From Candidatus Marinacidobacterales bacterium (GTDB taxonomy: Bacteria > Acidobacteriota > Vicinamibacteria > Marinacidobacterales > DATDRI01), in the NCBI GenBank assembly GCA_965219415.1, contig CBDCNP010000002.1, forward strand, positions 3,648,001-3,712,000: 64,000 nucleotides of DNA. The letters run 5' to 3'. Below are positions 5,155-19,916 of the stretch, piece after piece (within the stretch, counting starts at the first letter, position 1; each line of letters begins with the position of its first letter). Made by a program: the position numbers and the translations under genes. The notes beneath the pieces are model-generated. The model did not search any database. It worked only from the letters and a program-made list of their open reading frames with translations, and was not told where the DNA came from.

Positions 5155-5178
5155 ACCTGCTGGAGTCCTTCCTGCGCG

Positions 5179-5937
5179 CTATGCGCTCATACCGAAGTGG
5201 GTTTGGAGCGCCTCTTCCCATTCAGCCCGCTCGCGAATGGGAATTTCTTGCTTGGTGCTTCCGTGGGTCGTGACGAGTCGATCGGGCAGAAGCGTGACCC
5301 GTCCGTCCGGGAGCGCCTTCGAGCAGATGGTGTTCTGCGTGAAATGGGAATGAGGGGACGTCTGGTGATAACGGCAACCGTCCGTGAAATCTTCGAGCTT
5401 CCGCGGTTCCAGGGTGAAGCGGTATTGGGGCTGGAAGATCGCTGCACCTTCGGGCTGGCGGTCCAAGAACCACCAGTCCTCTTGTTGGCGTAGGCGGTAG
5501 ACGTGGCCGAGCTGCGCTACCTCCGCAACGGCGTCTAAGACCAGCGGATGGCGAAAAGAGTCCCCGAAACCAACGTCGGCAAGAAACGGGCGATCGAGTT
5601 CCACGCGGAGGGTCATATGGTCGAATGGAATCCCCCATGTGCCGTCCGGCTTCGCCACTTCGGCGGCGAGGACACGGACCTCGAAACCGAGATGTCGCAG
5701 GAGCCAGGCAAAGGCAGTGTTGAGCTCGTAGCAAAATCCTCCGCGGCAGTCGGTCACGATCTTTCGCAGGATTCGCTCTTCGTTCATTTCGATGGGTACG
5801 CCTCGGTGAATATCGAGGTTCTCGAAGGGAATCGTTAAGAGATGGCGCTCATGGACCCGCCGAAGCACGTCCAGGTCGGGGTCCCCGGCTCTCTCAAGGT
5901 CGAGCCGGCTCAGGTAGCTTTGAACATCCATCGGCAT
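5179..5937 (-). CDS. arylamine N-acetyltransferase
   Basis: IPFENLDI, RGGFCYELN (catalytic Cys), DHM, DVGFG. Confidence 0.93.
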   Translation of the reverse strand: MPMDVQSYLSRLDLERAGDPDLDVLRRVHERHLLTIPFENLDIHRGVPIEMNEERILRKIVTDCRGGFCYELNTAFAWLLRHLGFEVRVLAAEVAKPDGTWGIPFDHMTLRVELDRPFLADVGFGDSFRHPLVLDAVAEVAQLGHVYRLRQQEDWWFLDRQPEGAAIFQPQYRFTLEPRKLEDFTDGCRYHQTSPHSHFTQNTICSKALPDGRVTLLPDRLVTTHGSTKQEIPIRERAEWEEALQTHFGMSA

Positions 5938-6074
5938 TCCAGGAGCGCGGGCATCATACCGACCCGCAGGGCCGCATGTCCAGTCCCCTCAGGGGTTTCC
6001 GACGACGGGTCTCGGCGTCCTTGAGCGGGCGAACGTAGGCGAGGGATACTATAGCCGTTGATTGGTTGGGACAC

Positions 6075-7127
6075 ATGAAACGCCGAACCCGACGCTCCAA
6101 GAAACCAAAGACCGGTCCGTCTCAATGGGAACACCTGCCCGAGAAAGATTTGCTTGCGCTGAGGCTTAGAGACCTTGGCCTCACGATCGAAGGTACGGTA
6201 CTCGAGGAACGGATCGAGCAAGTGTGTTGGGAGCTCGACGAACGGGGCATCCGTTTCCGACCCCACTTTTGGCCTTCCGACGACTGGTTTACCCCGGACG
6301 GTGTTCCCGGCATTGCCATCCCGTTCTACCTAGCCCACCCTCGACTGGCTCAGCTCGAACGGGCCAAGATGCTTGAGGTGGAAGGCGGAACCCCACGCTC
6401 CTGCCTTCGTATCCTCCGGCACGAGGCCGGGCACGCCATCGACAACGCTTACGGCTTGAGACGGCGGCGCCATCGCATCGAGCTCTTCGGAAAGTCGTCG
6501 GAGCCCTATCCCGACCATTACTCTCCTCGTCCCTATAGCAAGAGCTACGTGATCCATCTAGACTCGTGGTACGCACAGAGCCATCCCGACGAGGACTTCG
6601 CCGAGACCTTCGCGGTCTGGTTGAACCCTGAATCCGAATGGCGCAAGAGGTATTCGGGTTGGCGCGCGCTGGCAAAACTGGAGTACATGGACGAGCTCAT
6701 GCGGGAGGTCATTGCGAGCAAACCGAAGGTCAAAACGCGTCGCCGGCTGGACCCTCTGTCTCGCCTCCGCAAGACCTTGGGCAAGCACTACGAGGAAAAG
6801 CGAGAGCGCTATCAGGTGGACTATCCGAAATTCTGCGATCGAGACCTCCGGCAACTCTTTTCGGACGCTCCCGAGTACCAGACCAATACACCCGCCGCAA
6901 CTTTCTTGTCCAAGAAGCGCAAGGAAGTACGACGCAGCGTCGCGCGGTGGACGGGCGCTTACCAATATACTATCGACCAAGTACTGGCAGACATGATAAG
7001 ACGCTGTCGGGAGCTGAAGCTGCGGGTTGTGAAACCCGAGGCGGAAACGACTTTCGATTTTACCGTCCTTCTCACCGTGCAAACCATGAACTATCTTCAC
7101 AGCGGCCGACATCGATTGAGTCTATGA
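6075..7127 (+). CDS. putative zinc-binding metallopeptidase
   Basis: HEAGH (HExxH) plus YAQSHPDEDFAETF; stop overlaps next start (ATGA). Confidence 0.8.
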   Translation: MKRRTRRSKKPKTGPSQWEHLPEKDLLALRLRDLGLTIEGTVLEERIEQVCWELDERGIRFRPHFWPSDDWFTPDGVPGIAIPFYLAHPRLAQLERAKMLEVEGGTPRSCLRILRHEAGHAIDNAYGLRRRRHRIELFGKSSEPYPDHYSPRPYSKSYVIHLDSWYAQSHPDEDFAETFAVWLNPESEWRKRYSGWRALAKLEYMDELMREVIASKPKVKTRRRLDPLSRLRKTLGKHYEEKRERYQVDYPKFCDRDLRQLFSDAPEYQTNTPAATFLSKKRKEVRRSVARWTGAYQYTIDQVLADMIRRCRELKLRVVKPEAETTFDFTVLLTVQTMNYLHSGRHRLSL

Positions 7128-8146
7128 AAACGTACCGCATCCTTGCGCTCATGCACGAAGGTTTGGTTCCCCCCGACGATATTAGCGGCCACGACGTCGC
7201 CGCTGTCGAATGGAAGATGGAGTATGACGTCATCAGTACCTTGGAAGAGATCGGGCACGAGGTTCACCGACTGGGCGTGGGCAGTAATCTCGGCGCGATC
7301 CGAAAAGCGATCCACGATTTCAAGCCTCACATCGTCTTCAACCTATTGGAGGACTTCGACGATGTGGCTATCTACGACCAGAACGTGGTGAGCTACCTCG
7401 AGCTCATCAAGACGCCCTACACCGGCTGCAATCCGCGGGGCCTGATGTTGGCCCGGGACAAAGCGATCTCCAAGCAACTCCTTACGTACCACCGCGTCGC
7501 CGTTCCCGACTTCCATGTCTTCCGGCGAGGAAAGGGGGTCCGAAAACCGAAGCGGCTCTCTTTTCCTCTGATCGTCAAGTCTCTTATTTTGGAGGGCTCG
7601 GCGGGCATCTCCCAGGCTTCCGTGGTCGGAGATCAGGAGCGACTCAAAGAGAGGGTTCAGTTTATCCATGAAACCTTCGAAACCGATGCTATTGTGGAGC
7701 ACTACATCGACGGGCGAGAGTTTTACGTGGGCGTGATGGGCAACCAGCGCCTGCAGGTGCTTCCAGTGTGGGAGCTTCGTTTCACGAACCTGGCCGTTGA
7801 CGTGCGCCCCATCGCAACCGGCCGCGTGAAGTGGAACACCCGTTATCAGAAAAAGCATGGGGTGAGGACCGGGGCGGTGAAGGACCTGCCGGATGAGAAG
7901 CGAGCAGCGATACAACATCTGTGCAAACGGGTTTACCGGATACTGGGTCTCAACGGGTACGCGCGGCTCGATCTCAGACTCGACCAGAACGGAAAAGTCC
8001 ACGTCCTAGAGGCGAACCCGAACCCCCAACTAGCTTACGGCGAGGACTTCGCCGAATCGGCGGAAAAAGCCGGGATCAGCTACGAGGAGCTCATGCAGCG
8101 AATCATCACCCTAGGGCGGCGCTGGCAGCCGGAGCGATATCGATGA
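7124..8146 (+). CDS. ATP-grasp ligase, D-Ala-D-Ala ligase-like
   Basis: PYTG, DKAISK, FPLIVK, GSAGIS, EHYIDGRE, GYARLDLR, LEANPNP; true start at ATG 7124. Confidence 0.85.
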   Translation: MKTYRILALMHEGLVPPDDISGHDVAAVEWKMEYDVISTLEEIGHEVHRLGVGSNLGAIRKAIHDFKPHIVFNLLEDFDDVAIYDQNVVSYLELIKTPYTGCNPRGLMLARDKAISKQLLTYHRVAVPDFHVFRRGKGVRKPKRLSFPLIVKSLILEGSAGISQASVVGDQERLKERVQFIHETFETDAIVEHYIDGREFYVGVMGNQRLQVLPVWELRFTNLAVDVRPIATGRVKWNTRYQKKHGVRTGAVKDLPDEKRAAIQHLCKRVYRILGLNGYARLDLRLDQNGKVHVLEANPNPQLAYGEDFAESAEKAGISYEELMQRIITLGRRWQPERYR

Positions 8147-10027
8147 CGATCCACATGCGTTCGATCCCATACCGCCTCGCCTTTTTCATTGCATTCACGT
8201 TTTCAACACTATTCTCCTGCGGCCCTTATGGGAGTAGCTGGGAAGATCATGCCGGCTGGGTGCGCTTTCATTACGACAAGCAGGAGTACATGGTGCCCAT
8301 GCGGGACGGCGTGGAGCTCTTCACCATCGTCTATACGCCCAATAACAAAAAGGAGGCGCTCCCGATCCTCCTCTACCGAACACCGTACTCCATTGCGCCG
8401 TACGGCTCGGACGAGTTCCGGGATGTACTCGGACCTTCCCCCGAGTTCGATCGAGATGGCTACATATTCGCCTTCCAGGACGTCCGCGGGAAGTTCAAGT
8501 CGGAGGGAGAGTTCGCGGTTATCCGGCCGCTGGCCCCGAAACCCAAAGGGGCGACCGACGTCGACGAGAGCACCGACAATTTCGACACCATCGAGTGGCT
8601 TTTGGCAAACGAGGCAATAACGGGCGCGTCGGACAATGGGGGATCTCCTACTCCGGTTGGCAGACACTCATGGGCATGGTCGATGCGCATCCGGCGCTCG
8701 CCGCTTCGTCCCGCAGGCTTCGCCCTCCGATATGTTCATCGGCGACGACTGGCACCATAACGGTGCCTTCCGCATCATGTACGCGTTCTCCTGGCTTTCC
8801 CGGAATGCCCGTCGACGGGACGCTCCCACCGAGGAGCGGGCCGGTCCCTTCGACTACGGCACACCATCTGGATACGATTTTTTCCTCGACGCCGGAGCGG
8901 CGGCGCGGATCGACGAGCTCTATTTTCACGGAGACGTGCTCGCATGGAACGACTTCATGGAGCACGGCAACTACGACTACTATTGGCAACGACAGAACGC
9001 TCTCCAGAATCTTCATGGAATCGACCACGCAACACTGAACGTCGCGGGGTGGTTTGATACCGAGGATTTCTACGGCCCGATGTCGATCTACCACACCATC
9101 GAGGAGAAAAACCCAGGAATCGAGAACACGCTGACTGCGGGTCCGTGGCTTCACGGCGGCTGGCGTAGCATGGAAGGGGATCACCTGGGGTGCGTCGAGT
9201 TTGATTCGAAGACCTCTTTGTACTTCCAGCGCGAAGTACAGTTTCCTTTCTTTCAGCACCATCTCAAGGAAAAAGGAGATTGGGAGGCGTTGGAGGCGGT
9301 GGTTTTCGAGACCGGCTCGAACGAGTGGAAGCGCTATGACAGCTGGCCGCCCGAAGACTCGGAGAACACCAAGCTCTATTTGCGGGCCGACGGAAAACTA
9401 TCCTTCGAGGCGCCGACCGGCTCCGACGCCGATTCTTACGTGAGCGATCCAAACAAACCAGTACCCTTCTCCGCCGAGATCCGAACCACGCTGGGCCATT
9501 TGTGGAAGGTGGAGGATCAACGATTCGCGTCAACGCGCCCGGATGTGCTGGTCTACGAGTCAGACGTTCTGGAAAAGGATCTCACCATCGCCGGTCCGAT
9601 CCTCGCGAACATTTTCGTATCGACCACCGGAACGGGATCCGATTGGATCGTCAAATTGATCGACGTCTATCCCGGCGATGCACCTGCCAGCACCTTCTGC
9701 GATATACCGATGGGCGGTTTCCAAATGCACCTCGCCGGGGAGATCATGCGGGGGCGGTTTCGAAACAGTCTCGAGGATCCGCAGCCGATGAAGCCTGGCG
9801 AAGTCACGCCGATTGTCATCGATCTTCGCGACCGCTATCACACCTTCAAGGCCGGGCACAGCATTATGGTCCACATTCAGAGCTCGTGGTTCCCGGCCTA
9901 CGACCGGAACCCTCAAATTTACGTAGACATTTACCGGGCCCAACCGGAGGACTACCAATCCGCGACCCAGACGGTTTATCGCTCGGCCCAGTACCCCTCT
10001 CACCTCGTTTTAGGAGTGCTGCCTTAA
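8143..10027 (+). pseudogene. CocE/NonD family alpha-amino acid ester hydrolase, two frameshifts (~8610, ~8705)
   Basis: VPMRDGVEL, RTPY, QDVRGK, then GRVGQWGISYSG in a second frame, then GDDWHHNGAF...SSWFPAYDRNPQ in a third. Confidence 0.85.
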
Positions 10028-10032
10028 GGCAT

Positions 10033-10682
10033 TTACCTCCAACTGAGCGTGTCGAAACGTTCGCCGGCTTTCATGACTAGGTGAATCTTGTGCCACGCCC
10101 AGCGCTCTTCGAGCGGATTGGCCTGGAGTGATATCATGTCGGCGAGCTTGCCGGGCTCCAAGGTTCCGAGATCGTCACCTAAACCGATGTTTTGAGCGCC
10201 GACCGCGGTGCCGGCACGGATCGCATCCATCGGTGTGAAGCCGCCCTCGACCAAGAGCTCGATGGCGTTTCCAATGCCGCCGACGTAGAGCGGGTCCATC
10301 CCAAGACTAATAGGAACACCTGCCTCGAAGGCCGCCAGAACTTGGGTCTGTTGTGTCCGGATAGAAGGGGAGAAGTCGCGTCCCCGGCGGTTCTCGTCGA
10401 AGTCATCGTAGGGGCGATCTTCGGTCTCGACCTCCGGGTGAGCCTTTCGGTGCTCGAAATATTGTTTCTTTTCGAAATCGATCCAATCTCCCGGCCCGCG
10501 CGCACCGGTGTCCATGAACTCCCAAGTGGACTCGTCCGGTCGGAAGCCAACGTACACCAGCGGAGTGAAACAGACGGCGGTACCGCGCTCTAGCATCATG
10601 TCGATAATCTCCGGGGTCATGGGCCGGGCATGCTCGATGGTATCGACGCCGGCTAGAATGGCGGTCTTCATCGAACGGCCCC
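10033..10682 (-). pseudogene. amidohydrolase, C-terminal fragment only
   Basis: AGVDTIEHA, GFTPMDAIRAGT, GTLEPGKLADMI; N-terminal half absent and replaced by an opposite-strand C25 fragment. Confidence 0.8.
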
Positions 10683-11038
10683 ATCCCAACCTCACGAATG
10701 GGGACCGGCTGCCAGTGATCGCCGTGATGGGCTGCCACCTGGGCAATTACTGGTTGCCTGGCCATTCTTCACTCGCGGAAGACCTCGTGCTCCATCCCGA
10801 CGGTGGCGCGGCAGCGGTTTGGTCGCCTGCCGGGCTCTCCTACAATCCGCGACGACGGATCCTGGGGGAGGCCTATCTCCGCGCCGTCTATGAAGAGGGG
10901 GTCGATATTCTAGGCGACGCCGTCTTGCATGCCTTGTCCGTTGCCGCTACGAAACATGCAAGCGGACGGCGTGAGGTCCTGGAGACTCAGGTTCTCCTCG
11001 GCGACCCGGCGCTAAGACTGAAGAGCGCCCACCGATAA
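10683..11038 (+). pseudogene. peptidase C25 (gingipain-like) domain, C-terminal fragment
   Basis: LTNGDRLPVIAVMGCHLGNY...SLAEDLVLHPDGGAAAVWSPAG...LGDAV...LLGDPALRL matches the C25 C-terminal pattern; no start or N-terminus. Confidence 0.75.
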
Positions 11039-11105
11039 CGGAAAGTTATGCGGCCATAATGACTCTTTCCAACAAACCACACATAGCAGCGGGAGAGCAG
11101 ATGGA

Positions 11106-11285
11106 ATGACGAAACCGGATAAGCCTTCCGAACCCCAACCAGAAGAGAATTCCGGCGAGCAGCGAGACAAGAAAAAGCCCTACCAGAGGCCACGGGTGAC
11201 TTTTCGGGAACCTCTCGAGGGTGTAGCCTCCATTTGTAATCCTCCCGGCAAAGGCGCCCCACCTTGCGAGTTCGCTTCTTCCTAA
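11106..11285 (+). CDS. putative RiPP precursor peptide (59 aa)
   Basis: Below ORF-track cutoff. MTKPDKPSEPQPEENSGEQRDKKKPYQRPRVTFREPLEGVASICNPPGKGAPPCEFASS; upstream GGGAGAG RBS; KKPYxxP RRE-binding motif; first gene of the maturase operon. Confidence 0.85.
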   Translation: MTKPDKPSEPQPEENSGEQRDKKKPYQRPRVTFREPLEGVASICNPPGKGAPPCEFASS

Positions 11286-11293
11286 GCGAGACT

Positions 11294-11728
11294 ATGAGAG
11301 AGGAAGTCCTGTCCGCCCTCCGGGAATTGGGAATCGAGCAGCCTCTGCGCATCAGAGTTCGAGGTTTCTCGATGGCTCCCGATCTTCCGGACGGTGCGAC
11401 CGTCGAGATCTCACCTCGAATGATCTACTTGCCCGGGGACGTTATCGCTTTCGTGGCGCCTAATGGAGAGCTGAGGGTCCACCGCGTCCTCGGCTATCGA
11501 TGGCAGCTCTCCCACTGGCGCGTAGTTACCAAGGGGGATAACGCGAGCTGGATCGACCCCTCGGTGACGCCGGATCAAGTGCTAGGCCTCGTGCGAGGTG
11601 GCGACTGCGCACGCTCCATCTACGAGGTTCCTATCAGCCACCGTTTTCGAGCCGTCGGCCTCTTGCTCCGGAGGCTCGTCACATGGTGTGCCGCGATCCA
11701 TGGGCGAGAACATCATGAACTTCGGTAA
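11294..11728 (+). CDS. S24/S26 family peptidase
   Basis: RVRGFSMAP (catalytic Ser), PGDVIAF, VHRV (His), VTKGDNA; no N-terminal TM anchor. Confidence 0.85.
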   Translation: MREEVLSALRELGIEQPLRIRVRGFSMAPDLPDGATVEISPRMIYLPGDVIAFVAPNGELRVHRVLGYRWQLSHWRVVTKGDNASWIDPSVTPDQVLGLVRGGDCARSIYEVPISHRFRAVGLLLRRLVTWCAAIHGREHHELR

Positions 11729-12656
11729 TCAGTTCCTGAGCTGCCCCGATCTGTTTCCCGCCCGTCTCGCCGGTGAACCTTGGGGGAAGCGGAGCGTGGC
11801 GATCGACTTCTTGGGAAAGCGGTACTTGGTCACGGGGCTCAACAAAGAACAAGCCGACGCAATTCATGCTCACTTCGGTCCCTACTGTCTGCCCGGCGAT
11901 TCCACAGTTTCACCCGAGGTAGAGATTCGGATTTATCGAGCGGACGAAGAAGACTTCAGAAGCTTCGATCTCCGTGGCTGGGACTACACCCTCGACATGG
12001 ACTACCGGGTTGACTCCGTCCGAGTGGCCGGACTCGATTTCATGGGACTTCTCGAGTGCCGCCACGATCTCGTCGCGGCTATTTGGACTTCGGCTCGAGA
12101 CGCGGACGGCTTCTGCGGAGTCTTCGAGAACTTCCTCCGCGTGACCGCCCAGTATCATTTGCTCAGGTCCGGTGGAGTTTTGCTACACAGTGCCGCCTTT
12201 GTCATAGAAGGCACTGCCTATGTCTTCCCCGGCCGCTCCGGGGCGGGCAAGTCGACAGTCTGCCATCTGGCCAAGATACAGGGATGGCGGATCTTGAGCG
12301 ATGAGCTCAACGCTGTCTCGATGCAAGAAGGTCGTGCACTCGTTCGGCAAGTGCCGTTCGCCGGCGACTTCGGGCGGACGAGTTGCTCGAGCAAGTCGTT
12401 TCCCTTAGCCGCCATCTTCAAACTGCGCCAGGCGGAGGACGACACCATCCAGCCGATCTCGCCATCGCAATCGCTCGGCTCGATGTTGTCGTGCGCGCCC
12501 TTCGTGAATCTCGACCCTCACCGATGTGAAACAGCCTCAACCGTGTTGGAGGAGATCGCCTCGGGCCACCCGGGCTTCACACTGAGTTTTTCCCTTGGGG
12601 GGAACTTGAGAGCACTCGAGAGATTCTGTTCTCGCTCGGAGGTACCGGCACTATGA
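11715..12656 (+). CDS. HprK-related P-loop kinase-like protein (ScmC-like)
   Basis: LLHSAAF...FPGRSGAGKST Walker A, LSDE, PFAG. Confidence 0.75.
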   Translation: MNFGNQFLSCPDLFPARLAGEPWGKRSVAIDFLGKRYLVTGLNKEQADAIHAHFGPYCLPGDSTVSPEVEIRIYRADEEDFRSFDLRGWDYTLDMDYRVDSVRVAGLDFMGLLECRHDLVAAIWTSARDADGFCGVFENFLRVTAQYHLLRSGGVLLHSAAFVIEGTAYVFPGRSGAGKSTVCHLAKIQGWRILSDELNAVSMQEGRALVRQVPFAGDFGRTSCSSKSFPLAAIFKLRQAEDDTIQPISPSQSLGSMLSCAPFVNLDPHRCETASTVLEEIASGHPGFTLSFSLGGNLRALERFCSRSEVPAL

Positions 12657-12934
12657 GCTACGCCTTGTGCAACGACGTCCGCTACCGGCTCCTCCTCAAC
12701 GAGGCTGTTGTCATTCGACAAGATGCAGCCAAAGTCCTCGGATTGAACCTTGTCGGAGCCCGAGTCCTAGAGCTGATCGACCAGGGGCATGGCCAGAGAG
12801 TGATCCTGACGTCACTCGCGGAGGAGTTCGATGTCGCTCCGCGGGAGCTCGAAGCAGATGTGAGTGCTTTCTTGCGAGAGCTCGTGGAGCTCGAGATTGT
12901 CGAGACTGTTCAAACCGCAACCGGAGCCAACTGA
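12653..12934 (+). CDS. PqqD family RiPP recognition element
   Basis: 93 aa; LNLVGARVLELID, LAEEFDV, LEADVSAFLREL..LEIV pattern. Confidence 0.9.
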   Translation: MSYALCNDVRYRLLLNEAVVIRQDAAKVLGLNLVGARVLELIDQGHGQRVILTSLAEEFDVAPRELEADVSAFLRELVELEIVETVQTATGAN

Positions 12935-12935
12935 C

Positions 12936-13998
12936 ATGGGCTACCACGACGTGATGAAACGCATGGCCGATGAACACGCCCTCATGTCGGTGCTCTTGGA
13001 GCTCACTTACCGCTGCAATCTGGATTGCTTTTTCTGTTACAACGATCTCAACCTCGAGGGCGAACGCCTGTCAACCAACAACTATCTTCAGCTACTCGAA
13101 GACCTGCGCAACTTACAGGTGATGGTCCTCGTCCTATCCGGTGGGGAGCCTCTGACTAGTCCGGCGTTTTGGCCTCTCGGACGCAGGGCTAGAGAGTTGG
13201 GCTTCGTGACCCGCGTCAAATCGAACGGGCACGCCGTCGGAAAGGATGTCGCTCGCCGGCTCAAGAAAGAAGTAGACCCTTATGTCGTCGAGGTCAGCCT
13301 ACACGGCGCTTGCGCCGAGACCCATGACCGCCAGACTCGGGTCGAAGGAAGCTTCGACAAGCTGACCGCTAACCTAGAAGAGATGCGGCGGGCCGGCTTG
13401 CGGGTTAAGCTCAACAGCACGCTCACCCAATGGAACGAGAAACAGATCGCGGAGATGTTCGCCCTCGCGGACGACTTGGATATTCCGCTTTCCATGGACG
13501 CCGTGGTTACCCCGAGAGATGACGGTGATCGCGAGCCCCTCGCAATCGCAGCCTCGGCCGAAGGGGTGGCGCATCTCTATTCATTGCTGCGAGAGCGAAA
13601 AGGGCACCCTCCCCAGGAGATTCTTTCCGGTTGGCACGAGTGGACGGAAAAATTGCGGTACCGGCTCCGCGACGCTCGCGGTCGATCCCTTTGGAAACGT
13701 GTACCCGTGCATTCAGTGGCGCAGGCTGGTTGGGAATCTACACCGACATTCGATCGAGGAGATCTGGGGCGGATCCAAAGCGCTCGATGAGATCCGACGA
13801 TTGAACACAGACGCGGGGCGATTGGTAGACAGCTTGGGTCCCGCGGGCCAAGACATGGGATTCTGTCTCGGGCTGGCGGAAGAGCTGACCGGCGATCCTC
13901 TCGCTCTTTGTCCCCAGGCCGAGCGAAACCTGGGTGTCCTGCGAGAGCTACAGACGAAAACCGAGACGATACGGCTGCCTATTTACGGGCAGGACTGA
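12936..13998 (+). CDS. radical SAM / SPASM-type peptide maturase (frameshift ~13600-13640)
   Basis: ELTYRCNLDCFFCY (CxxxCxxC), LSGGEP; second frame CGTGSATLAVDPFGNVYPC...GNLHRHSIEEIW...FCLGLA...TGDP. Confidence 0.88.
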
Positions 13999-15626
13999 TT
14001 GTCTTCGGGTCTCGATCGAGCCCGACAACAACTCCCACAATAACACTGAGAAGGGCGGCGTTCGCGGGCAAATGAAGACTTGAAATCGGTAAAACTATGA
14101 AGCGCGATTGCCAACGCCGCAGAGCAATATCCGGCGTGTAAATAGCGTGCGGCACGGTCACCGAGTAGCCTTTGTCGAGTGCGCCAAGCCGCCTTCCAAA
14201 CGCAGGCTACGAGCCACAAGAAAAGTAGTAGCCCGGGCACACCCAACTCTATGAGGAGCTGCAAATAGTCGTTGTGGGCGTGGGTGTAGGAGACAGCCCC
14301 TCCAAAGCTTCGGTAGATGGGGAAGACCTGGCCGAATGTCCCTAAACCCGATCCGGTAAGCCAAAAATCACTGGTCGCCTGCACGCTGTCCGACCACACT
14401 CGCTGACGCCCCACTTCCTCGTTCCAAAGCTCGGAGACCGCGTCGAAACGCTGAGCCAGGATACCCATTCCAAACCAAATCATGATTCCGGCGACGACGA
14501 AAGAGATTGCTCGAAGGCTTCGCGCCGCGTAGCGCGCCCGTTCGCCAGCACGAACTTCGATCGGCCCTGCTCCTGGTGATCGTGAGCCAACCAGTACGGT
14601 GAAAAGTGCAAGGGCGGCTACCGCAGCGATGATCCCCGACCGGGAGAGCGAAAAGAGGAGTCCCAGGCCAATCACGATAAGTCCGAAGCCTACGATGACG
14701 AACTTGGCTCGCGACTCTTGCCGGACGACATCGGCTAGGCGCGAGAAGCCGGTTCTTTGTGCGTCACTGGTGTCGACACGAGCCATCCTGGCCCCGATCC
14801 AACCGGCGCTGCAGAGCAAGAGCATCTCCATGCTGGCAGCGTAATGGTTGGGGTTGCCGAACGTCCCGCGAGCTCGGAGTCCCACATCCGATGGATCGGC
14901 GCCGAGCAGTTCCTGCAATCCAACAAGCCACTGAGTGATCCCGTACAGGCCAGCCGCGACGCCCACTATCAGGAGCATCGACGAGAGGCGGTCAACGGAG
15001 CGGCGATTCGAAGCCAAGCAAACACCAACGTAGAAAAGAGCGAGGTAGGCCACCCAAAGGCAAAGTCCGCGCTCGATTAGAAAGCTAGACAGTGTTATGG
15101 GTGCTTCGATCGAAGCTTCTTCGTCGAGCATGAGGCCTTGAGCTGCCATCCGGATCTCGCTCGCCCGTGGGGATAGCCGAAGCATCCAACCTTCACGCAG
15201 TGGTAGTAAGGACGCTCCCATCCAAACGGTGAGCAGCAAGAGGGGCATTCCCAAGCCGGCTCGCTTGAATTCGTATCCGGCAAAGAAGAAGGAATCTGGG
15301 CGCCTCTCGGTACGGCCCGGAAGCAGAATCTCGACTCCCGCTACACTTCCTCGCGCAGGAAAGAGGCCTAGACTCAACAGACGGCTGACGGTGGCTAGGT
15401 GCGGATACCGAACGGCGAAAGGCAATTTCCGCGAGGCACGCCGCTGCTCCAAGTTGCGCGCCCTTTCTTCCGGGTTGGTACACCACAAGACACGCAAGAG
15501 AACCCACGACAAGAGACAACCCGCCCCGAGCTCGAGGAGGAGGGTCGCCCACGGCGAGTAGCCTCCCCATCCCAGGGTCACGCAAACCAGCAATAGCACG
15601 ATGGCGTAAGGAAGGTGACGGGGCAT
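13979..15626 (-). CDS. O-antigen ligase family protein (frameshift ~14080)
   Basis: GTFGNPNHYA, SLSRSG, GSGLGTF, HAHNDYLQLLIELG; HSFTDF continues as SLHLPANA in another frame. Confidence 0.85.
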
Positions 15627-15633
15627 TTGCTTG

Positions 15634-16833
15634 TTACGAACCTTCTGCGGATGGCTTGTTCAGAAGCAGGAGTTGTCTAAGCTCTCGATCGGCTTGTGAA
15701 TGTCGTGGGTTTAGCCGCAGGACTTCCCGGTAGGACTCAATCGAGGCTCGCCGGTTCCCGGTCTTGCGGTACGCACGGGCCAAGCCAAGCCGTATGTCGG
15801 GATCGTGCGGAGCAGCTTCGGTGGCCTTCAGCAAAAGGCTCTCTGCCATGACCGCCTGCTCCGCCTTCAGATACTGGTAGCCCATGCCTCTCAAAAGCCC
15901 CACGCTAGCCGAAGACGATACGCCGGCATGCCGCTCCACCTTCCTTAGTGCTTCGCTGAAGGCCTCATAAGCTCGCTCCGGCTGACCTAGCTCGAGGTGG
16001 GCCCTCGCGATCACCAAAGCAGCACGAGCAAAATGTGTCCCCACACGCCCCGAGCGATCTTCCTGCTCGAGCCACTCTTGTCCCGTTCGAAGCGCGATAG
16101 CGGGCGCGTTCCACTCGAAGGCCCATCGTGCCGCGTCGAAGAAAAGTTCCCTCTCCGAGGCTGATTCGAGAACCTCGGCGAGAACGTTCAGAGCCTCGGT
16201 TCTGTGCCCCGACCCGGCGAGGGCTAGTGCCAGCTCTTTTCTTGCCGGAACGGTCTCAGGCGTCAAGTCGCGCCACCTGTCCGCTGGCACGCCACTCCAG
16301 GCGACGAGCTTCAACGAGCTGGGGACGAGGTCGGGCTCGAGCTTCATCGCCAACGCCAGGTGACCCAGGCCGCGACGGTGAGCATCGCCGGACTGATCCG
16401 AACTCTGCGACGCAACCTTCCTTATTCGAAGCGGTTCGAGCCTAGGTGTAAGCAACCATTGCGCATACGTGAAACGAAGACGTCCATTCGTGGGAGAAAG
16501 CTCGATGGCCACTTCGAAGGCCCGCTCGCTCAGCTCGCGTTCTTCCAGTCGATTCGCTAGAAAAGCTGCAAGTAGAAATGGCGACTGATAGGAGGCGGGA
16601 GCCTCTTTCAACGATTGGCGAAGATAGGGTCGAATGCGGCTCGAGAAGTCCTTGGACTCGATGGCGTGACGAGTGAGGCCTAACGTTGCTTCTGGATGTC
16701 GCAGCCGCAGGTTCGCCCCGAGATCGATCTCACTGGGAGATCGCGCCCACCTCTCTTGCTCATAGAAGAAAAACGAGGCCCCAGCATAGGCGCCAGCGAC
16801 GACGGCAAGGATGCTAGTCAGCACAAACCGCAT
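15634..16833 (-). CDS. TPR-repeat membrane-anchored/periplasmic protein
   Basis: N-terminal hydrophobic segment; TPR patterns such as LGLARAYRKTG...YREVLRLNP. Confidence 0.7.
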   Translation of the reverse strand: MRFVLTSILAVVAGAYAGASFFFYEQERWARSPSEIDLGANLRLRHPEATLGLTRHAIESKDFSSRIRPYLRQSLKEAPASYQSPFLLAAFLANRLEERELSERAFEVAIELSPTNGRLRFTYAQWLLTPRLEPLRIRKVASQSSDQSGDAHRRGLGHLALAMKLEPDLVPSSLKLVAWSGVPADRWRDLTPETVPARKELALALAGSGHRTEALNVLAEVLESASERELFFDAARWAFEWNAPAIALRTGQEWLEQEDRSGRVGTHFARAALVIARAHLELGQPERAYEAFSEALRKVERHAGVSSSASVGLLRGMGYQYLKAEQAVMAESLLLKATEAAPHDPDIRLGLARAYRKTGNRRASIESYREVLRLNPRHSQADRELRQLLLLNKPSAEGS

Positions 16834-16855
16834 GGTGTTGCAGAAAGAATGGAGT

Positions 16856-17585
16856 CTATTTCCCTACCACCAGCGAACGCCTCACCTTGGACACGGAGTC
16901 GGCCCGCGACTCGCCAAAGGGCGCTGACACGAGGCGGGCTTCGGGGAGCACGTCACTCAACACGAGCCGGATCGCCCCACCCTTCTCCTCGAACGAGTAC
17001 TGCTCCAAGCGGCGAAGGGCGGACTGCACCATGTCTTCGGAGTAAGGCCCCATCTTGCCGATACGGATCTTGGGGTGTCGGGTCATGGAGACCGACTCGC
17101 TGTTGAGCTGCAGTTCTTCGTGGAGTTTCTCCCCCGGGCGAAGGCCGGTAAAAACGATTTCCACATCCTCGAACGGCTTGAGACCCGAAAGCAGGTCATG
17201 TCGCGCGCGAGATCCAGAATGCGCACCGACTCGCCCATGTCGAGAATGTATATTTCACCCCCTTCTCCCATGGCACCCGCCTGGAGAACTAGTTGGGCCG
17301 CTTCCGGAATCGTCATGAAATAGCGCCTCACCTGGGGATGGGTGACGGTCACCGGTTCACCCCGCGCGATCTGTTCTCGAAAAATGGGGATAACGGATCC
17401 GGCCGAGCCCATGACGTTTCCGAACCGAACTGCAACGTAACGAGTCGGAAAGCGACGCCCGAGATCCTGCACGATCAGTTCCGCCATCCTCTTCGAGGCT
17501 CCCATGATGGAAGTCGGTCGGACCGCCTTGTCGGTAGAAACGAGTACAAACGTACTCACCCCGAGCTCACCGGCCAGCACCTCGA
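16856..17585 (-). pseudogene. CapD-like nucleoside-diphosphate sugar epimerase/dehydratase, C-terminal fragment with frameshift
   Basis: [38 protein letters not shown], then [12 protein letters not shown] in another frame; 5' two-thirds missing. Confidence 0.88.
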
Positions 17586-18104
17586 GGGACGGTACGAACT
17601 TCGTGCCAATCTTCACGCTGTCCGCTGATCGCTTTCAGGCTCGAAACGGTGGAGCTGTTTCCGAAGTTGAAGTGAGAAGCACCTTTCTTCTGACTAACCG
17701 CGAGCGGGTTCAACACGACGTTGCGGAAATGATTGAGCTCGATATTCTCCTTCAGCCTCGTGAGATTATCTGGGTGAAGGCTCAAAGGCGTGCACCCGCC
17801 CTTTTTCTCCCACCAGTTGCGCTAATAGCAACGTGTAAAGCCCATGGTGGGCGCCGACGTCCAGTACAACGTCGCCCGGTGCAACCCACTCTCTGAGGCG
17901 TCTTCTCGCGTCTAACTCGTGGCGGAGCAGGAGCTGAAAGTCTCCGCCCTCTCGAGGATAGAGAGCGAAACGAAAAGGGCATCCGAGCTCGCGGTGGGTC
18001 ACCACCCACCGCCTTGGAAGCAGGTGTAGAGCCTTGCGCATGACGACTTTGGGAACGACTGATTTGATCGCACGATGCACATATGGACCGAGATGGTTGT
18101 TCAT
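17586..18104 (-). pseudogene. FkbM family methyltransferase, N-terminal part, frameshifted and truncated
   Basis: VLDVGAHHGLY, VHAFEPSP, NLTRLKENIELN; ends at EVRTV where it joins capD sequence. Confidence 0.82.
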
Positions 18105-19329
18105 GGAGTGGGCCCCCAGGCGCGACCGGCTGAGGCGGGCGCTCCATCCTGCATGAGAATGGGAGCGCGTTCTTTCGTGTTGGATCGTCTGGGTGGCGCC
18201 GATACCCGCATCCGCCTCGCGCTCAATGCGATGACCAGGAAGGGCAGGGCTCCGTTCTTGAGAAAGAAGAACACGACGTTGTCTGAATCGGACACGAGAA
18301 GAACGAAACTCAGGTTGATCAGGACGGGGTAGAGGAGAAAACGCGCGTCTTCTGGCCGTAGGGTGGTCAGCATGTGCCGCACCCTCTGAACGAAGCACCC
18401 AAGAATCGCGAAGGCGAGGGCCGCCGCAAGCGGACCGAAGTTGAGCATCGCCTCCCCGGCAAGGCCGTAAACGCGAGATGATTGCAACTTTCCCGGAACG
18501 TACGAGCCGGCCCCGTACTGAGCCTCTGTCCCTTCCTTGACTTTCGTTGGGGGACGGCTCGCCAGAGCGCCCGCGGCACGACCAGTGCCGCCGCCCCTAA
18601 GTAGGTCCGCCCCATTCCGAAACGATAGTCGTCGGGGTATAACAACAACCGATAAAGGAGGAATGCCTGGACATCGCTCCGCGCCAAGTCGCTGAGGATG
18701 GTGGCCTCCAATGTCCGACCCGTCTAACCCGCCAGTGCGGTAACACCTTCGCTCGTTTTGAAGGCCTCCAAGGCTTCTACACCAAGAGCCTTATAGAAGC
18801 CGTAGAGGTACATGAAGGAGATCAGAAAAACGATGCCTACCAGGATCACCTTCTTCGGTACCTGTCTCACCCAGAAGTGAATGATGCCGACTGCCCAGAA
18901 GAGGCCCCATATGGTGTTGCTCCGGCTTCCACGGAGTCCTCCGAAAAACAGCTTGAACGATAGATAGACCAGCAACACCCCAATGATTACGCTCCAGGAA
19001 TACCCGACCCGGCGATGGTGCGCATAGACCGCGAAACCCATGAGCGCGATGATCGGGAAACTTTCGGAGATCATGAACACCCATCCCATTCCCTGGAACC
19101 CCTCGGACTCCGTATAGGCGGTCATGTAACCCAGCACGCCGCACATCCATACCGGAAGGACGAACCAATGGACGAAACGACCGGAAGACGCAATGGTCAA
19201 GATCAGAACAAGACAGCACAAGTAGCAAGCCAAGAAGAAACTACCAGTCGAAATGTGGGTATACGCGTCAGCGGGCAGTCTTCTGGTGGGTTTCCCGAGA
19301 GTAGATGGCCCTGGTGCGTGCTCAGACAC
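18101..19329 (-). pseudogene. polysaccharide polymerase (Wzy-like) membrane protein, disrupted
   Basis: Hydrophobic, GGLRGSRS, EAMLNFG; in-frame TAG at 18724-18726, frameshift ~18555, probable internal deletion ~19130. Confidence 0.65.
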
Positions 19330-19916
19330 GATAGATCGACTCCATATGTTTGACGCTCTCCTCTATGTTGAACGAACTGTTTTCCACCAGAGCAAGTGCC
19401 TCACGTCCCATCAACTCCGGACGCGTATCACGCGCGGCGAGGATCGCGTCTGCCCACACTGGTGCCGGGGAGGTGAGCGGCAGCCGTCGCAACAGGGGCC
19501 CCACGACATCCGCTTCTGGCGGGACGACATCCGCTATCACACAGGGCAATCCGGCTGCTTGAGCTTCCACGAGCGCCAACCCCAAGCCTTCCCACAACGA
19601 GGGGAAAAAGAACACGTCTGTTGCACCTACCATCAGGCGAGGAACATCGGTTCTGGTTCCCGCGAAGACGAATCTGTCCGCCATCTTGAGTTTGTCCACT
19701 TTTCGTTCGATGATTGGTCGCAGTTTGCCGTCCCCAACGAGCAGGAATCGAGCGTTAACGTCGCGGCGGGCGATTTCGCGAGCAACTTCTATCCATAAGT
19801 GATGGTTCTTCTGTTCCGTAAAGTTCCCCACATGCCCCACCACGAAGGCGTCGGCGGGGATTCCAAGCTCGGCTCGCACAGAGGACTTGTCAATACGCGA
19901 GCGAAAAGGGGACAGG
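19322..19916 (-). pseudogene. GT4 glycosyltransferase, C-terminal fragment truncated at IS256 end
   Basis: GHVGNFTEQKNH, FPSLWEGLGLALVEAQAAGLP. Confidence 0.88.

What the first reader, a model, noticed from the sequence alone, without database searches (positions are those of the whole stretch)
11106..13998. Candidate uncharacterised RiPP system: hidden 59-aa precursor, S24/S26 peptidase, HprK-like kinase, PqqD/RRE and radical SAM/SPASM
Seen: five tightly spaced or overlapping co-oriented genes. The first is a 59-aa ORF absent from the ORF track. Known: YxxP leader motifs bind PqqD-type RREs, and rSAM/SPASM enzymes make Cys-thioether or C-C crosslinks. An HprK-like + PqqD + rSAM set recalls the SynChlorMet cassette, whose product I do not know to be characterised. 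Inferred: a crosslinked and possibly phosphorylated peptide, released by a dedicated signal-peptidase-like protease. No lasso cyclase or lanthipeptide enzyme is present, so it fits neither class.
Basis: partly seen in the sequence, partly recalled or inferred. Interest (0 to 1): 0.88.

Follow-up and report, generated by a model that had tools for sequence, protein, structure and literature searches.

The report
Decayed acidobacterial peptide-maturation gene cassette
A small hidden peptide gene and its four tailoring-enzyme genes are real and belong to a widespread, still uncharacterised peptide-modification system of Acidobacteriota, but the copy in this genome is partly broken.

Summary
At 11106-13998 (+) lie a 59-aa ORF, an ER/archaeal-type signal-peptidase-I-like protease, an HprK/PEPCK-fold kinase, a PqqD-type RRE and a radical SAM enzyme. 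The last has a reduced SPASM domain and is split by a frameshift at 13620-13632.

The short ORF is a gene. It is 92% identical in a sister genome (dN/dS 0.15) and belongs to a peptide family with 1076 protein clusters. That family matched 81 of 401 sampled Acidobacteriota genomes and nearly always sits beside the orthologous radical SAM gene. The peptides share a YxxPx[ILV] leader, an AxA-like cleavage site, a Cys-x(6-13)-Cys loop holding Lys/Arg, and a C-terminal Ser.

The cassette passes no curated family cut-off (SynChlorMet, HPr-rel-A, GeoRSP, sacti-/ranthipeptide, MftC, PqqE). The closest characterised system is the Bacillota LPP pathway (2026), which shares the protease, RRE and kinase but has no radical SAM enzyme.

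A giant PorU-like C25 protease is the peptide's usual neighbour and survives here only as a 3' stump (10684-11038). The frameshift recurs in contigs from two studies. The surrounding polysaccharide locus is decayed. The family is a strong uncharacterised RiPP lead, but this copy is probably inactive.

The parts
10684..11038 (+). 3' remnant of a giant PorU-like Peptidase_C25 gene. The open frame is 10508-11038, but only the last ~115 codons are homologous to the full-length gene.
   Evidence: PF01364 scores E 7.5e-18, aligned to profile positions 255-374 of 374 only. Synteny with the sister genome L022 (89.8% nt identity) begins at window 10684; L022 carries a frame of at least 1780 codons ending 61 nt before its precursor gene. 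tblastn with the full-length L040 and L041 proteins hits only window 10691-11029.
11106..11285 (+). Precursor peptide gene (59 aa). The leader carries Y26-x-x-P29-x-V. The predicted cleavage site is G-V-A|S-I-C. The predicted 18-residue core holds C44 and C54, K49 in the loop, and a C-terminal Ser-Ser.
11294..11728 (+). Soluble ER/archaeal-type signal-peptidase-I-like (clan SF) protease, the predicted leader peptidase. Ser26, His63 and Asp82/Asp88 are conserved, with no invariant Lys. It has an N-terminal helix and no HTH domain.
   Evidence: The analogy is to LppS (catalytic S29/H68/D93) in PMC13381572, section 11.
11715..12656 (+). HprK/PEPCK-fold P-loop kinase. H158, K179 (Walker A) and D196 are invariant. 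Position 197 is Glu here and in L022, and Asp in the other 6 aligned sequences.
   Evidence: The His-Lys-Asp-Asp motif of lasso-peptide kinases is taken from passages of PMC9266682.
12653..12934 (+). Discrete PqqD-family RiPP recognition element (93 aa).
   Evidence: PF05402 scores 48.1 bits, above cut-off. The best NCBIfam matches are lasso PqqD models, all below cut-off. The best solved relative is the lasso protein TbiB1 (5v1u), E 3.8e-5. The complex model with the precursor gave weak support.
12936..13619 (+). Radical SAM core of the maturase (228 homologous codons, CxxxCxxC cluster motif). This frame then runs on out of register to a stop at 13790.
13620..13632 (+). Frameshift site, with a net +1 nt relative to the intact sister gene.
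   Evidence: DNA and protein alignment with L022, read against the ruler. No indel was seen in Logan contigs from two studies that span the site.
13621..13998 (+). C-terminal auxiliary-cluster domain of the maturase in the +1 frame (reduced SPASM, twitch-like). The CX13GX4C motif and one further Cys are conserved in the family. The CX2CX5CX3C block is absent.
   Evidence: PF13186 scores 34.3 bits. TIGR04085 scores 20.7 bits, below its 27 cut-off. Alignment of six intact orthologues.
13983..16833 (-). Context genes, convergent with the cassette: a Wzy_C/O-antigen-ligase-like membrane protein (13983-15626) and a TPR protein (15634-16833). A Polysacc_synt_2 fragment follows at 17083-17616.

Best explanation
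This is one copy of a conserved, uncharacterised Acidobacteriota peptide-maturation (RiPP-type) system. It is partly inactivated in this genome.

Shown here:
- A ~60-aa peptide family is genetically coupled to an orthologous radical SAM enzyme. Most loci also carry an HprK-fold kinase, and many carry a discrete PqqD RRE.

Inferred mechanism:
1. The RRE binds the YxxPx[ILV] leader motif and presents the peptide to the enzymes.
2. The kinase phosphorylates the near-invariant C-terminal Ser, as HprK-like kinases do for paeninodin-type lasso precursors.
3. The radical SAM enzyme has one CxxxCxxC cluster and a reduced auxiliary-cluster domain. It installs a crosslink in or around the Cys-x(6-13)-Cys loop that carries the conserved Lys/Arg. 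A Cys-derived thioether is the most likely chemistry.
4. In this sub-type, the soluble Ser/His/Asp signal-peptidase-I-like enzyme removes the leader after the small-x-small site (G-V-A|S here), with the RRE's help, as LppS does.
5. A giant PorU-like C25 protease usually sits next to the peptide gene. It is a further partner with an unknown role: processing, conjugation or regulation.

In this genome the C25 gene is reduced to a stump and the radical SAM gene is frameshifted in the linker before its auxiliary-cluster domain. A fully matured product is therefore probably no longer made.
For: Anatomy and domain assignments:
-.

The peptide is a real gene family:
- It is 92% identical in L022 with omega 0.145.
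- 1076 protein clusters match at E<=0.01. All names shown are 'hypothetical protein' and none has a Pfam domain.
- 81 of 401 sampled phylum genomes match at E<=0.01.

Genetic coupling:
- In 9 loci picked by kinase similarity: peptide 8/9, PqqD 9/9, rSAM 9/9.
- In 14 loci picked by peptide profile: rSAM 12/14, kinase 10/14, PqqD 6/14 (7/14), S24-like 2/14, C25 12/14.

Peptide grammar, from 137 peptides parsed:
- A basic residue in the Cys-Cys loop in 137/137 (136 Lys, 1 Arg).
- C-terminal Ser in 135. One further peptide is a regex artefact whose real end is also Ser, and one ends in Thr.

A paralogous rSAM plus HprK-like cassette, in this genome and in relatives, carries a second peptide family with the same grammar: YxxP leader, Cys-Lys, C-terminal Ser.

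Published analogies:
- C-terminal Ser phosphorylation by HprK-like kinases, with a His-Lys-Asp-Asp motif (passages of PMC9266682).
- An SpI-like, RRE-dependent leader peptidase in LPPs (PMC13381572 sections 6, 7, 11, 12).

RRE-precursor model: ipSAE 0.49 against a best control of 0.00. This mark was reached by 58 of 80 solved complexes and 2 of 110 mismatched pairs. At 0.60 or under, only 7 of those 80 solved complexes reached it, as did both mismatches that passed, so the tool rates it weak support. The runs share at least 92% of their contacts and the partner's pLDDT is at least 55. RRE-leader complexes have been solved, so the pass may be from memory.

Decay of this copy:
- Frameshift, reproduced with 0 gaps in contigs of runs X1 (study P1) and X4 (study P2).
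- C25 truncation.
Against: - No chemistry was measured. The radical SAM reaction, the phosphorylation site and the cleavage site are all analogies.
- The radical SAM enzyme scores far below every curated maturase cut-off. Its best NCBIfam matches are NirJ and AhbD (114 and 104 bits for the intact L022 protein), followed by MftC (100.8 against a cut-off of 265). A non-thioether reaction is therefore quite possible.
- Only 3 Cys are conserved in the auxiliary domain.
- The core is unusually conserved for an antibiotic-type RiPP.
- I annotated no exporter next to the cassette.
- The S24-like gene is absent from most loci, so leader removal by it is not general.
- 2 of 14 peptide loci (L047, L051) have none of the enzymes within 8 kb. 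L025 has the enzymes but no peptide within 6 kb.
- omega is 0.14-0.26 for all six segments, including the domain after the frameshift. The break sits in a variable linker. A functional split enzyme therefore cannot be excluded.
- One of the two contig sources may be the window's own sample.
Confidence: 0.7

Rival explanations
1. The peptide is a dedicated partner of the PorU-like C25 enzyme and of polysaccharide machinery, not a free antibiotic-type RiPP. In one version, the crosslinked loop presents its Lys/Arg as a P1 residue to the gingipain-type protease, acting as a substrate-like inhibitor or latency factor. In another, the sortase-like C25 enzyme conjugates the peptide to a surface glycan through its modified C-terminus.
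For: - A 1400-1780-aa C25 protein lies directly beside the peptide gene in L022 and in 12 of 14 peptide-selected loci.
- L044 has two tandem C25-peptide pairs served by one enzyme set.
- The C25 proteins align over ~500-630 residues to the T9SS sortase PorU model NF033707, at 165-216 bits.
- Lys/Arg is present in the Cys-Cys loop of 137/137 peptides.
- The order-level relatives (family f2) place the cassette inside an exopolysaccharide locus: Wzz/BY-kinase, NTP_transf_5, BBP2 porin, Bac_transf, GT4.
- The window copy abuts Wzy_C, TPR and Polysacc_synt_2 genes.
- The core is strongly conserved.
- The sortase-like role of PorU is taken from the title and abstract listing of PMC4560394.
Against: - None of the 8 f2 loci has a C25 gene within 6 kb.
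- C25 genes are multi-copy in these genomes, with 22 matches in G008.
- The PorU model cut-off of 420 bits is not reached.
- Nothing here tests protease specificity, inhibition or conjugation.
- The comparison of the loop with canonical inhibitor loops is recalled, not tested.
Confidence: 0.2
2. The peptide is the precursor of a small peptide-derived cofactor or signal, in the manner of PQQ or mycofactocin. It would be made from the conserved C-terminal residues by the rSAM and PqqD pair and then trimmed by proteases.
For: - A discrete PqqD plus rSAM pair, with rSAM similarity to MftC and PqqE over much of its length. TIGR03962 scores 100.8 bits, aligned 20-292 for the intact L022 protein. PqqE (6c8v) is among the best solved relatives.
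- The C-terminal tail of the peptide is very strongly conserved.
- No exporter is present in the cassette.
- There is a single copy per genome in most cases.
Against: - The MftC and PqqE cut-offs are missed by wide margins.
- No Tyr/Glu or Val-Tyr type terminal pair is present.
- The kinase, the surface-protease neighbour and the polysaccharide context fit a cell-envelope product better.
- The cassette is absent from most genomes of the phylum (320 of 401 without a match), which is unusual for a core cofactor.
Confidence: 0.07
3. The short ORF is a chance open frame and the four enzymes act on something else.
For: High-GC DNA yields many spurious ORFs. A 121-aa antisense ORF (10987-11352) overlaps the short ORF.
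Against: - The peptide family is conserved across the phylum, in different positions and orientations relative to the enzymes.
- omega is 0.145.
- A ribosome-binding-site-like GGGAGAG lies upstream.
Confidence: 0.01

Closest known systems
Linear polyphosphorylated peptide (LPP) pathway of Bacillota: LppA/LppK/LppB/LppS (Popov et al. 2026, PMC13381572; sections 6, 7, 11 and 12 read)
   Same: - A soluble archaeal/ER-type signal-peptidase-I-like Ser/His/Asp leader peptidase, a discrete RRE and an HprK-like kinase are encoded side by side.
- The leader carries YxxPx[V/I/L].
- If the two YxxP motifs are put in register (my own alignment by eye), the LPP cleavage point falls exactly after the small-x-small site of this family.
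- Both are associated with polysaccharide loci.
- The relatives in family f2 also carry the PF14907 nucleotidyltransferase that LPP and paeninodin clusters carry.
   Different: - LPP clusters have no radical SAM enzyme, and their cores are variable and 35-200 aa long.
- LPP phosphorylation is on Ser3 of the core. Here that position is the invariant first Cys, and the conserved Ser is C-terminal.
- No MsbA-type exporter or nucleotidyltransferase is in the window cassette.
- The LPP paper describes LPPs as restricted to Bacillota, whereas this system is in Acidobacteriota.
- The RRE here is closer to lasso TbiB1 (E 3.8e-5) than to the only other PqqD-family chain matched (9x8z, E 0.34).
Paeninodin-type phosphorylated lasso peptides (PadeK, ThcoK, PsmK kinases; PsmN nucleotidyltransferase), from passages of PMC9266682
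   Same: - An HprK-like kinase with His-Lys-Asp-Asp-type residues (H158, K179, D196, D/E197 here).
- A near-invariant C-terminal Ser in the precursors.
- A B1-like discrete RRE.
- A YxxP leader.
   Different: There is no B2 transglutaminase-type peptidase and no Asn-synthetase-type cyclase near the cassette or on this contig. A radical SAM enzyme takes the place of the class-defining enzyme.
SynChlorMet (ScmC-F), HPr-rel-A and GeoRSP cassettes. These are NCBIfam/TIGRFAM-defined and, as far as I recall, have no characterised product.
   Same: They combine an HprK-related protein, a PqqD-family protein and radical SAM/SPASM proteins. Distant homology is detectable (ScmC E 2.7e-10, HprK_rel_A E 1.7e-11).
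   Different: Every model scores far below its curated cut-off, so this is a separate family. A search for 'SynChlorMet' in the paper library found no paper.
Radical SAM/SPASM thioether RiPPs (sactipeptides and ranthipeptides: AlbA, SkfB, StsB, PapB, CteB)
   Same: An RRE-assisted radical SAM enzyme acts on a Cys-containing core. StsB, SkfB, PapB and AlbA models, and the SkfB and CteB structures, are among the detectable relatives.
   Different: - All scores are far below cut-off.
- The auxiliary domain keeps only 3 conserved Cys and lacks the CX2CX5CX3C block.
- The core has only two Cys.
- The added kinase, SpI-like protease and C25 partner have no counterpart in those classes.
Type IX secretion sortase PorU (Peptidase C25)
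   Same: The neighbouring giant protein carries a full C25 domain (PF01364, up to 234.6 bits) and aligns to NF033707 over ~500-630 residues.
   Different: - It scores below the PorU cut-off (165-216 bits against 420).
- It is much larger, and the L022 protein carries DUF11 repeats.
- No T9SS context was examined.
- In the window only the last ~115 codons remain.

Membership tests
SynChlorMet cassette (TIGR04248-04251) | ScmC-type HprK-related protein at or above 125 bits | tested here: not met
   40.1 bits for the window protein and 39.0 bits for the L024 orthologue.
SynChlorMet cassette (TIGR04248-04251) | ScmD PqqD-family protein at or above 100 bits, and ScmE/ScmF radical SAM proteins at or above 400 bits | tested here: not met
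   ScmD scores 22.7 bits. ScmE/ScmF score 62.6/66.7 bits for the window N-terminal part and 75.2/56.4 bits for the intact L022 protein.
HPr-rel-A system (TIGR04352/TIGR04353) | HprK_rel_A at or above 200 bits and PqqD_rel_X at or above 35 bits | tested here: not met
   43.7 bits and 23.4 bits respectively.
GeoRSP system (TIGR04302-04304) | PqqD at or above 100 bits, rSAM at or above 400 bits, and SPASM protein at or above 300 bits | tested here: not met
   22.7 bits, 57.8 bits (63.2 for L022) and 15.8 bits.
LPP family (PMC13381572) | SpI-like (SipW/archaeal-type) Ser/His/Asp leader peptidase next to a discrete RRE | tested here: met
   - The best NCBIfam hit is TIGR02228, below cut-off.
- Ser26 is kept in 6 of 7 homologues. 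H63, D82 and D88 are invariant and there is no invariant Lys.
- The fold best matches chains of the human signal peptidase complex.
- Direct homology to LppS itself was not tested, because no LppS sequence was in hand.
LPP family (PMC13381572) | HprK-like kinase | tested here: met
   Foldseek matches to PEPCK and HprK/P. Walker A, H158, K179 and D196 are invariant.
LPP family (PMC13381572) | PF14907-type NTP transferase and MsbA-like exporter in the core cluster | tested here: not met
   - There is no NTP_transf_5 tblastn hit in window 5000-18700.
- The genome's PF14907 genes lie elsewhere on contig C3, at 386025-386747 and 1753866-1754592.
- None of the flanking ORFs scanned with Pfam is an ABC transporter.
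- Two flanking ORFs had no family, and shorter ORFs were not scanned.
LPP family (PMC13381572) | Leader consensus YxxPxVLxHQxIxFETxxS, and phosphorylation as the only primary modification | tested here: not met
   Only the YxxPx[ILV] part is shared. A radical SAM maturase is present in 9/9 and 12/14 loci.
Lasso peptides | B2 transglutaminase-type leader peptidase and Asn-synthetase-like macrolactam cyclase in the cluster | tested here: not met
   PF13471 has one sub-threshold match, on contig C1. PF00733 has one match, also on contig C1. Neither is on the window's contig.
Lanthipeptides | LanC-like cyclase domain | tested here: not met
   PF05147 has no match in the genome, which is 96.33% complete.
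Sactipeptide/ranthipeptide maturases | Curated maturase models (StsB 625, AlbA 850, SkfB 300, PapB 340, SCIFF maturase 425 bits) and a full seven-Cys SPASM motif | tested here: not met
   - Best scores: StsB 92-99 bits, AlbA 44.7, SkfB 48.9, PapB 56.2.
- The SCIFF maturase model scores 16.7 bits on the window's C-terminal ORF.
- Only CX13GX4C plus one further Cys are conserved.
Mycofactocin / PQQ | MftC at or above 265 bits; PqqE at or above 381 bits; PqqD (TIGR03859) at or above 46 bits | tested here: not met
   100.8 bits, 87.9 bits and 23.8 bits.
RiPP biosynthetic cluster in the general sense | A short precursor with a conserved leader, an RRE, and a peptide-modifying enzyme genetically coupled across taxa | tested here: met
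   Binding of the RRE to the leader has only weak modelled support. Modification itself cannot be tested with these tools.
T9SS sortase PorU (for the truncated upstream gene) | NF033707 at or above 420 bits | tested here: not met
   165-216 bits for the intact homologues in L040, L041 and L022. The Pfam C25 domain itself is met.

The most novel reading that the evidence does not exclude
The cassette makes a crosslinked, C-terminally phosphorylated mini-peptide whose biological role is tied to the cell envelope rather than to antibiosis. It would be either a dedicated Lys/Arg-loop regulator of a giant PorU-like C25 protease, or a peptide that this sortase-like enzyme couples to exopolysaccharide. 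That would make it a new, phylum-wide class of RiPP, with a radical SAM step of unknown chemistry carried out by an enzyme with a three-Cys auxiliary domain.
Probability: 0.2. Interest if true: 0.9.

Novelty: new variant of a known kind. Interest (0 to 1): 0.7.

Why it matters
Acidobacteriota are abundant and hard to culture, and their ribosomal peptide chemistry is almost unexplored.

- This work defines a peptide family (1076 clusters in the protein collection, all unnamed) with fixed genetic partners. Those partners combine three modules that are each known separately but have not been described together: a radical SAM maturase, an HprK-like peptide kinase, and the SpI-like leader peptidase first described in 2026.
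- The core is far more conserved than in typical antibiotic RiPPs, and it travels with a giant C25 protease or sits inside exopolysaccharide loci. This points to a physiological role in the cell envelope or biofilm. The LPP authors raised the same question for LPPs and paeninodins and left it open.
- Intact orthologous cassettes (for example in L022, L041 and L024) give a direct route to the product by heterologous expression.
- For this genome in particular, the result matters for annotation: the locus should be marked as carrying a frameshifted maturase and a truncated C25 gene.

Tried and rejected
- **Membership of curated families.** SynChlorMet, HPr-rel-A, GeoRSP, mycofactocin, PQQ, sacti-/ranthipeptide and lasso membership were all rejected on curated cut-offs or missing genes.
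- **LexA-type S24 autoprotease or regulator reading of the peptidase.** Rejected. It has no HTH domain, an invariant His and no invariant Lys, and its best fold match is the signal peptidase complex.
- **Frameshift as a homopolymer assembly error at the A5 run 13646-13650.** Rejected. The alignment places the change at 13620-13632, and contigs from two studies reproduce it.
- **Promoter and terminator scan of 10600-14300.** It found 0 promoter-like sites and 3 terminator-like sites, against 3.2 expected. This is uninformative.
- **Expression.** No RNA holder was listed among the sequencing runs, so this is no evidence either way.
- **Run X6.** Its contigs leave 13623-13690 uncovered, so it says nothing about the frameshift beyond 13622.
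- **PF27840.** This is the precomputed Pfam label on most kinase homologues. It is not in the local Pfam library, so I could not read its name.
- **Literature.** Seven full-text searches and term look-ups in PMC12710340, PMC7470986, PMC10288494 and PMC8692599 found no description of an rSAM plus HprK-like plus PqqD system or of this peptide family. Supplementary tables of PMC10288494, PMC7470986 and PMC13381572 were not seen and might list such clusters.
- **Interrupted genes in relatives.** Four of the 8 f2 loci show interrupted genes: kinase in L026, rSAM in L027, kinase in L029, and a 3-kb insertion in the rSAM gene of L030. I did not check these against reads. They may be assembly errors, so I draw no conclusion from them.
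- The one search of protein representatives and the metagenome-contig scan were not used.

Full report
**What is there.** On the + strand between 11106 and 13998 there are six open frames that make five genes.
- A 59-aa ORF at 11106-11285, preceded by GGGAGAG 8 nt before the ATG.
- A 144-aa protein from the ATG at 11294.
- A 313-aa protein from 11715.
- A 93-aa protein from 12653.
- A radical SAM protein from 12936, whose C-terminal domain continues in the +1 frame to 13998.

The junctions overlap by 14 nt and 4 nt, or leave gaps of 8 nt and 1 nt, so the set looks like one operon. The window is G000:C3:3648001-3712000 of an 8.05-Mb, 3-contig genome. The nearest named relative (89% identity for the kinase) is a MAG labelled Candidatus Marinacidobacterales, which belongs to Vicinamibacteria, Acidobacteriota.

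**Domain assignments.**
- PqqD is the only part that passes a curated threshold outright: PF05402 scores 48.1 bits against 23.4. Radical_SAM (62.5 bits) and SPASM (34.3 bits) also pass.
- The peptidase hits archaeal signal peptidase I (TIGR02228, E 5e-8) and Peptidase_S24, both below cut-off. An alignment of seven homologues keeps Ser26 in 6 of 7. His63, Asp82 and Asp88 are invariant and there is no invariant Lys. An AF2 model (pLDDT 77.9) best matches chains of the human signal peptidase complex (7p2q_A, E 1.3e-4), ahead of LexA/lambda repressor and bacterial SPase I. It is therefore an ER/archaeal-type, Ser/His/Asp, soluble SPase-I-like enzyme with an N-terminal helix.
- The kinase has no hit in the local Pfam and only weak NCBIfam hits: HprK_rel_A 43.7 bits against 200, and ScmC 40.1 against 125. 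Its AF2 model (pLDDT 87) matches PEP carboxykinase (E 3e-8) and HprK/P (E 5e-6). H158, the Walker-A K179 and D196 are invariant. These correspond to the His-Lys-Asp-Asp motif reported for lasso-peptide kinases (passages of PMC9266682).
- The RRE's best solved relative is the lasso B1 protein TbiB1 (E 3.8e-5).

**The short ORF is a gene.** In the sister genome (L022) it sits in the same place and is 54/59 identical, with 5 non-synonymous and 9 synonymous differences (omega 0.145). The other five coding segments give omega 0.14-0.26.

In eight more distant loci of the same order (kinase 33-43% identical), a homologous 57-64-aa peptide is present in seven. There it is encoded just downstream of the radical SAM gene on the opposite strand. 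Conservation across a change of position and orientation excludes a chance frame.

A profile of nine peptides finds 1076 protein clusters at E<=0.01. All names shown are 'hypothetical protein', none has a Pfam domain, and the taxon labels seen are Vicinamibacteria, Thermoanaerobaculia and Blastocatellia. The profile also matches 81 of 401 sampled genomes of the phylum (this tally includes the unpublished genome G209).

**Peptide grammar.** Parsing 137 peptides (114 of the 120 listed clusters plus 23 peptides from the window and the loci) gives a consistent pattern:
- a YxxPx[ILVM] leader;
- an E-x-x-A stretch;
- a first Cys, then 6-13 residues that always include a basic residue (136 Lys, 1 Arg), then a second Cys;
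- a short tail ending in Ser. Ser ends 135 peptides; one more is a regex artefact whose real end is also Ser, and one ends in Thr.

The window peptide has the shorter loop type, with nine residues between the two Cys.

**Genetic partners.** One search gives the counts.
- Nine loci were chosen by kinase similarity (L022-L030). Three further hits on contigs under 2.7 kb were left out. These loci hold the peptide in 8/9, PqqD in 9/9 and rSAM in 9/9.
- Fourteen loci were chosen by me from the better rows of the peptide search (L040-L053), so they are not a random sample. These hold rSAM in 12/14, the kinase in 10/14, PqqD in 6/14 (7/14 at the smaller database) and the S24-like gene in 2/14 (L040, L041).
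- L047 and L051 have none of the enzymes within 8 kb.

Two architectures appear.
- In family f2, the cassette is Wzz/BY-kinase, PF14907 nucleotidyltransferase, kinase, PqqD, rSAM and a convergent peptide, followed by a BBP2 porin, an FAD oxidoreductase, Bac_transf and GT4. This places it inside an exopolysaccharide locus.
- Elsewhere, including the window's genus, a 1400-1780-aa protein with a full Peptidase_C25 domain lies directly beside the peptide gene. This is seen in L022 and in 12/14 loci. L044 has two tandem C25-peptide pairs.

These C25 proteins align over roughly 500-630 residues to the T9SS sortase PorU model, at 165-216 bits against a cut-off of 420. C25 genes are multi-copy in these genomes, but the adjacency is too regular to be accidental.

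**State of this copy.** There are two lesions.
1. Relative to L022, the radical SAM gene changes frame within 13620-13632 (net +1 nt). This falls in the variable linker before the auxiliary-cluster domain. Logan contigs of run X1 (study P1) and run X4 (study P2) span 11000-14100 with no gaps. A contig of X7 covers 13597-13747 without gaps. One of these sources may be the window's own sample. Even so, the lesion is reproducible and not an obvious assembly slip.
2. Nucleotide synteny with L022 starts at window 10684. L022 has a C25 frame of at least 1780 codons ending just before its peptide gene, whereas the window keeps only the last ~115 homologous codons (ORF 10508-11038).

Upstream of that stump lie further gene fragments: an amidohydrolase C-terminus and an S15 peptidase without its N-terminus. 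Downstream lies a Polysacc_synt_2 fragment, followed by IS copies. The low omega values reflect the shared history with L022 and do not show present function. A working split maturase cannot be excluded.

**The radical SAM enzyme.** Intact orthologues are 330-369 aa long. They carry CxxxCxxC, then CX13GX4C and one further conserved Cys. The CX2CX5CX3C block of full SPASM domains is absent. This suggests a single auxiliary cluster (twitch-like), which is an inference. The best NCBIfam scores for the intact L022 protein are NirJ 114, AhbD 104, MftC 101, StsB 92 and PqqE 88 bits, all far below cut-off. The best solved relatives by sequence are BlsE, PqqE, SkfB and CteB. No known reaction can be transferred to this enzyme with confidence.

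**Closest characterised system.** Popov et al. 2026 (PMC13381572; sections 6, 7, 11 and 12 read) describe LPPs of Bacillota. [quoted passage not shown] Their leader motif is YxxPxVLxHQxIxFET, and the clusters often lie in capsule loci.

The window cassette shares the protease-kinase-RRE trio and the YxxP motif. If the two motifs are put in register (my own alignment by eye), the LPP cleavage point coincides with the small-x-small site of this family: G-V-A|S in the window and A-M-A|A in most others. That is also what signal peptidases I prefer (textbook -3/-1 rule).

It differs in four respects:
- it has the radical SAM enzyme and the conserved two-Cys core;
- its conserved Ser is C-terminal, as in paeninodin-type precursors;
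- it lacks an exporter and a nucleotidyltransferase in the window;
- it is in a different phylum.

**Support for the coupling logic.** A paralogous radical SAM plus HprK-like pair is present in this genome (contig C1, degraded) and in relatives. Between its two enzyme genes lies another small ORF with the same grammar: a YxxP leader, Cys followed by Lys, further Cys residues and a C-terminal Ser. S24-like genes also occur next to PF14907 genes elsewhere in related genomes. The modules are therefore reused in several combinations.

**RRE-leader model.** The modelled complex scored ipSAE 0.49 against a best control of 0.00. The mark was reached by 58 of 80 solved complexes and 2 of 110 mismatched pairs. 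At 0.60 or under, only 7 of those 80 solved complexes reached it, as did both mismatches that passed, so the tool calls this weak support. The runs agree in at least 92% of their contacts and the partner's pLDDT is at least 55. Similar complexes have been solved, so the pass may be from memory.

**Verdict.** The family is an uncharacterised RiPP-type system. It is a new variant built from known modules, with an unknown class-defining reaction and an unexplained tie to a PorU-like protease and to polysaccharide loci. The copy in this window is probably no longer functional. I found no publication describing it. Supplementary files of the genome-mining papers could not be seen.

Noticed in passing
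window 22722-29054 (- strand): A complete rRNA operon: 5S, 23S, two tRNAs and 16S. The 23S match spans 3952 nt for a 2925-position model that is matched end to end, so about 1 kb of extra sequence sits inside the 23S gene. A 162-aa ORF (24255-24743, -) lies within it.
   Followed up: no
window 19910-21923 and 29976-32560: The rRNA operon is bracketed by repeated DNA. There are inverted 1224-nt arms (20402-21625 / 31337-32560, 99% complementary) carrying rve-integrase ORFs, plus direct repeats of 200-300 nt.
   Followed up: partly
window 6066-10746 and 17083-17616: Several neighbouring genes look truncated or frame-broken. There are overlapping frames across 6066-10027, an S15 peptidase aligned only from profile position 123, an amidohydrolase C-terminal fragment, and a Polysacc_synt_2 fragment aligned to profile positions 114-244 of 293. 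The whole neighbourhood appears to be decaying.
   Followed up: partly
G000 contig C1, about 1230800-1233260 (L038 6802-9260, - strand): A second, paralogous cassette. It has a radical SAM/SPASM gene (291 aa), a small ORF with a YxxP leader, Cys-Lys and a C-terminal Ser, and an HprK-like gene broken into three frames. A PrsT-like TPR gene lies next to it. The same arrangement with intact kinases occurs in L015, L017 and L021.
   Followed up: partly
L035, L036, L037 (genomes G028, G036, G001): Distant homologues of the S24-like peptidase sit directly next to PF14907 (NTP_transf_5) genes. This is another recombination of the LPP-type modules in Acidobacteriota.
   Followed up: no
L041 10423-10788 (- strand): In this S24-like homologue the position of the catalytic Ser holds Cys, while His, Asp and the rest of the motif are kept. 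It may be a Cys-nucleophile variant or an inactive copy.
   Followed up: no
L030 7836-10834: In genome G014 the radical SAM gene of the cassette is interrupted by about 3 kb between its core and its SPASM part. The inserted DNA was not examined.
   Followed up: no
P0134: One kinase homologue of 403 aa carries both the kinase label (PF27840) and PF05402. It is a natural kinase-PqqD fusion, which supports the idea that the two proteins work together.
   Followed up: no
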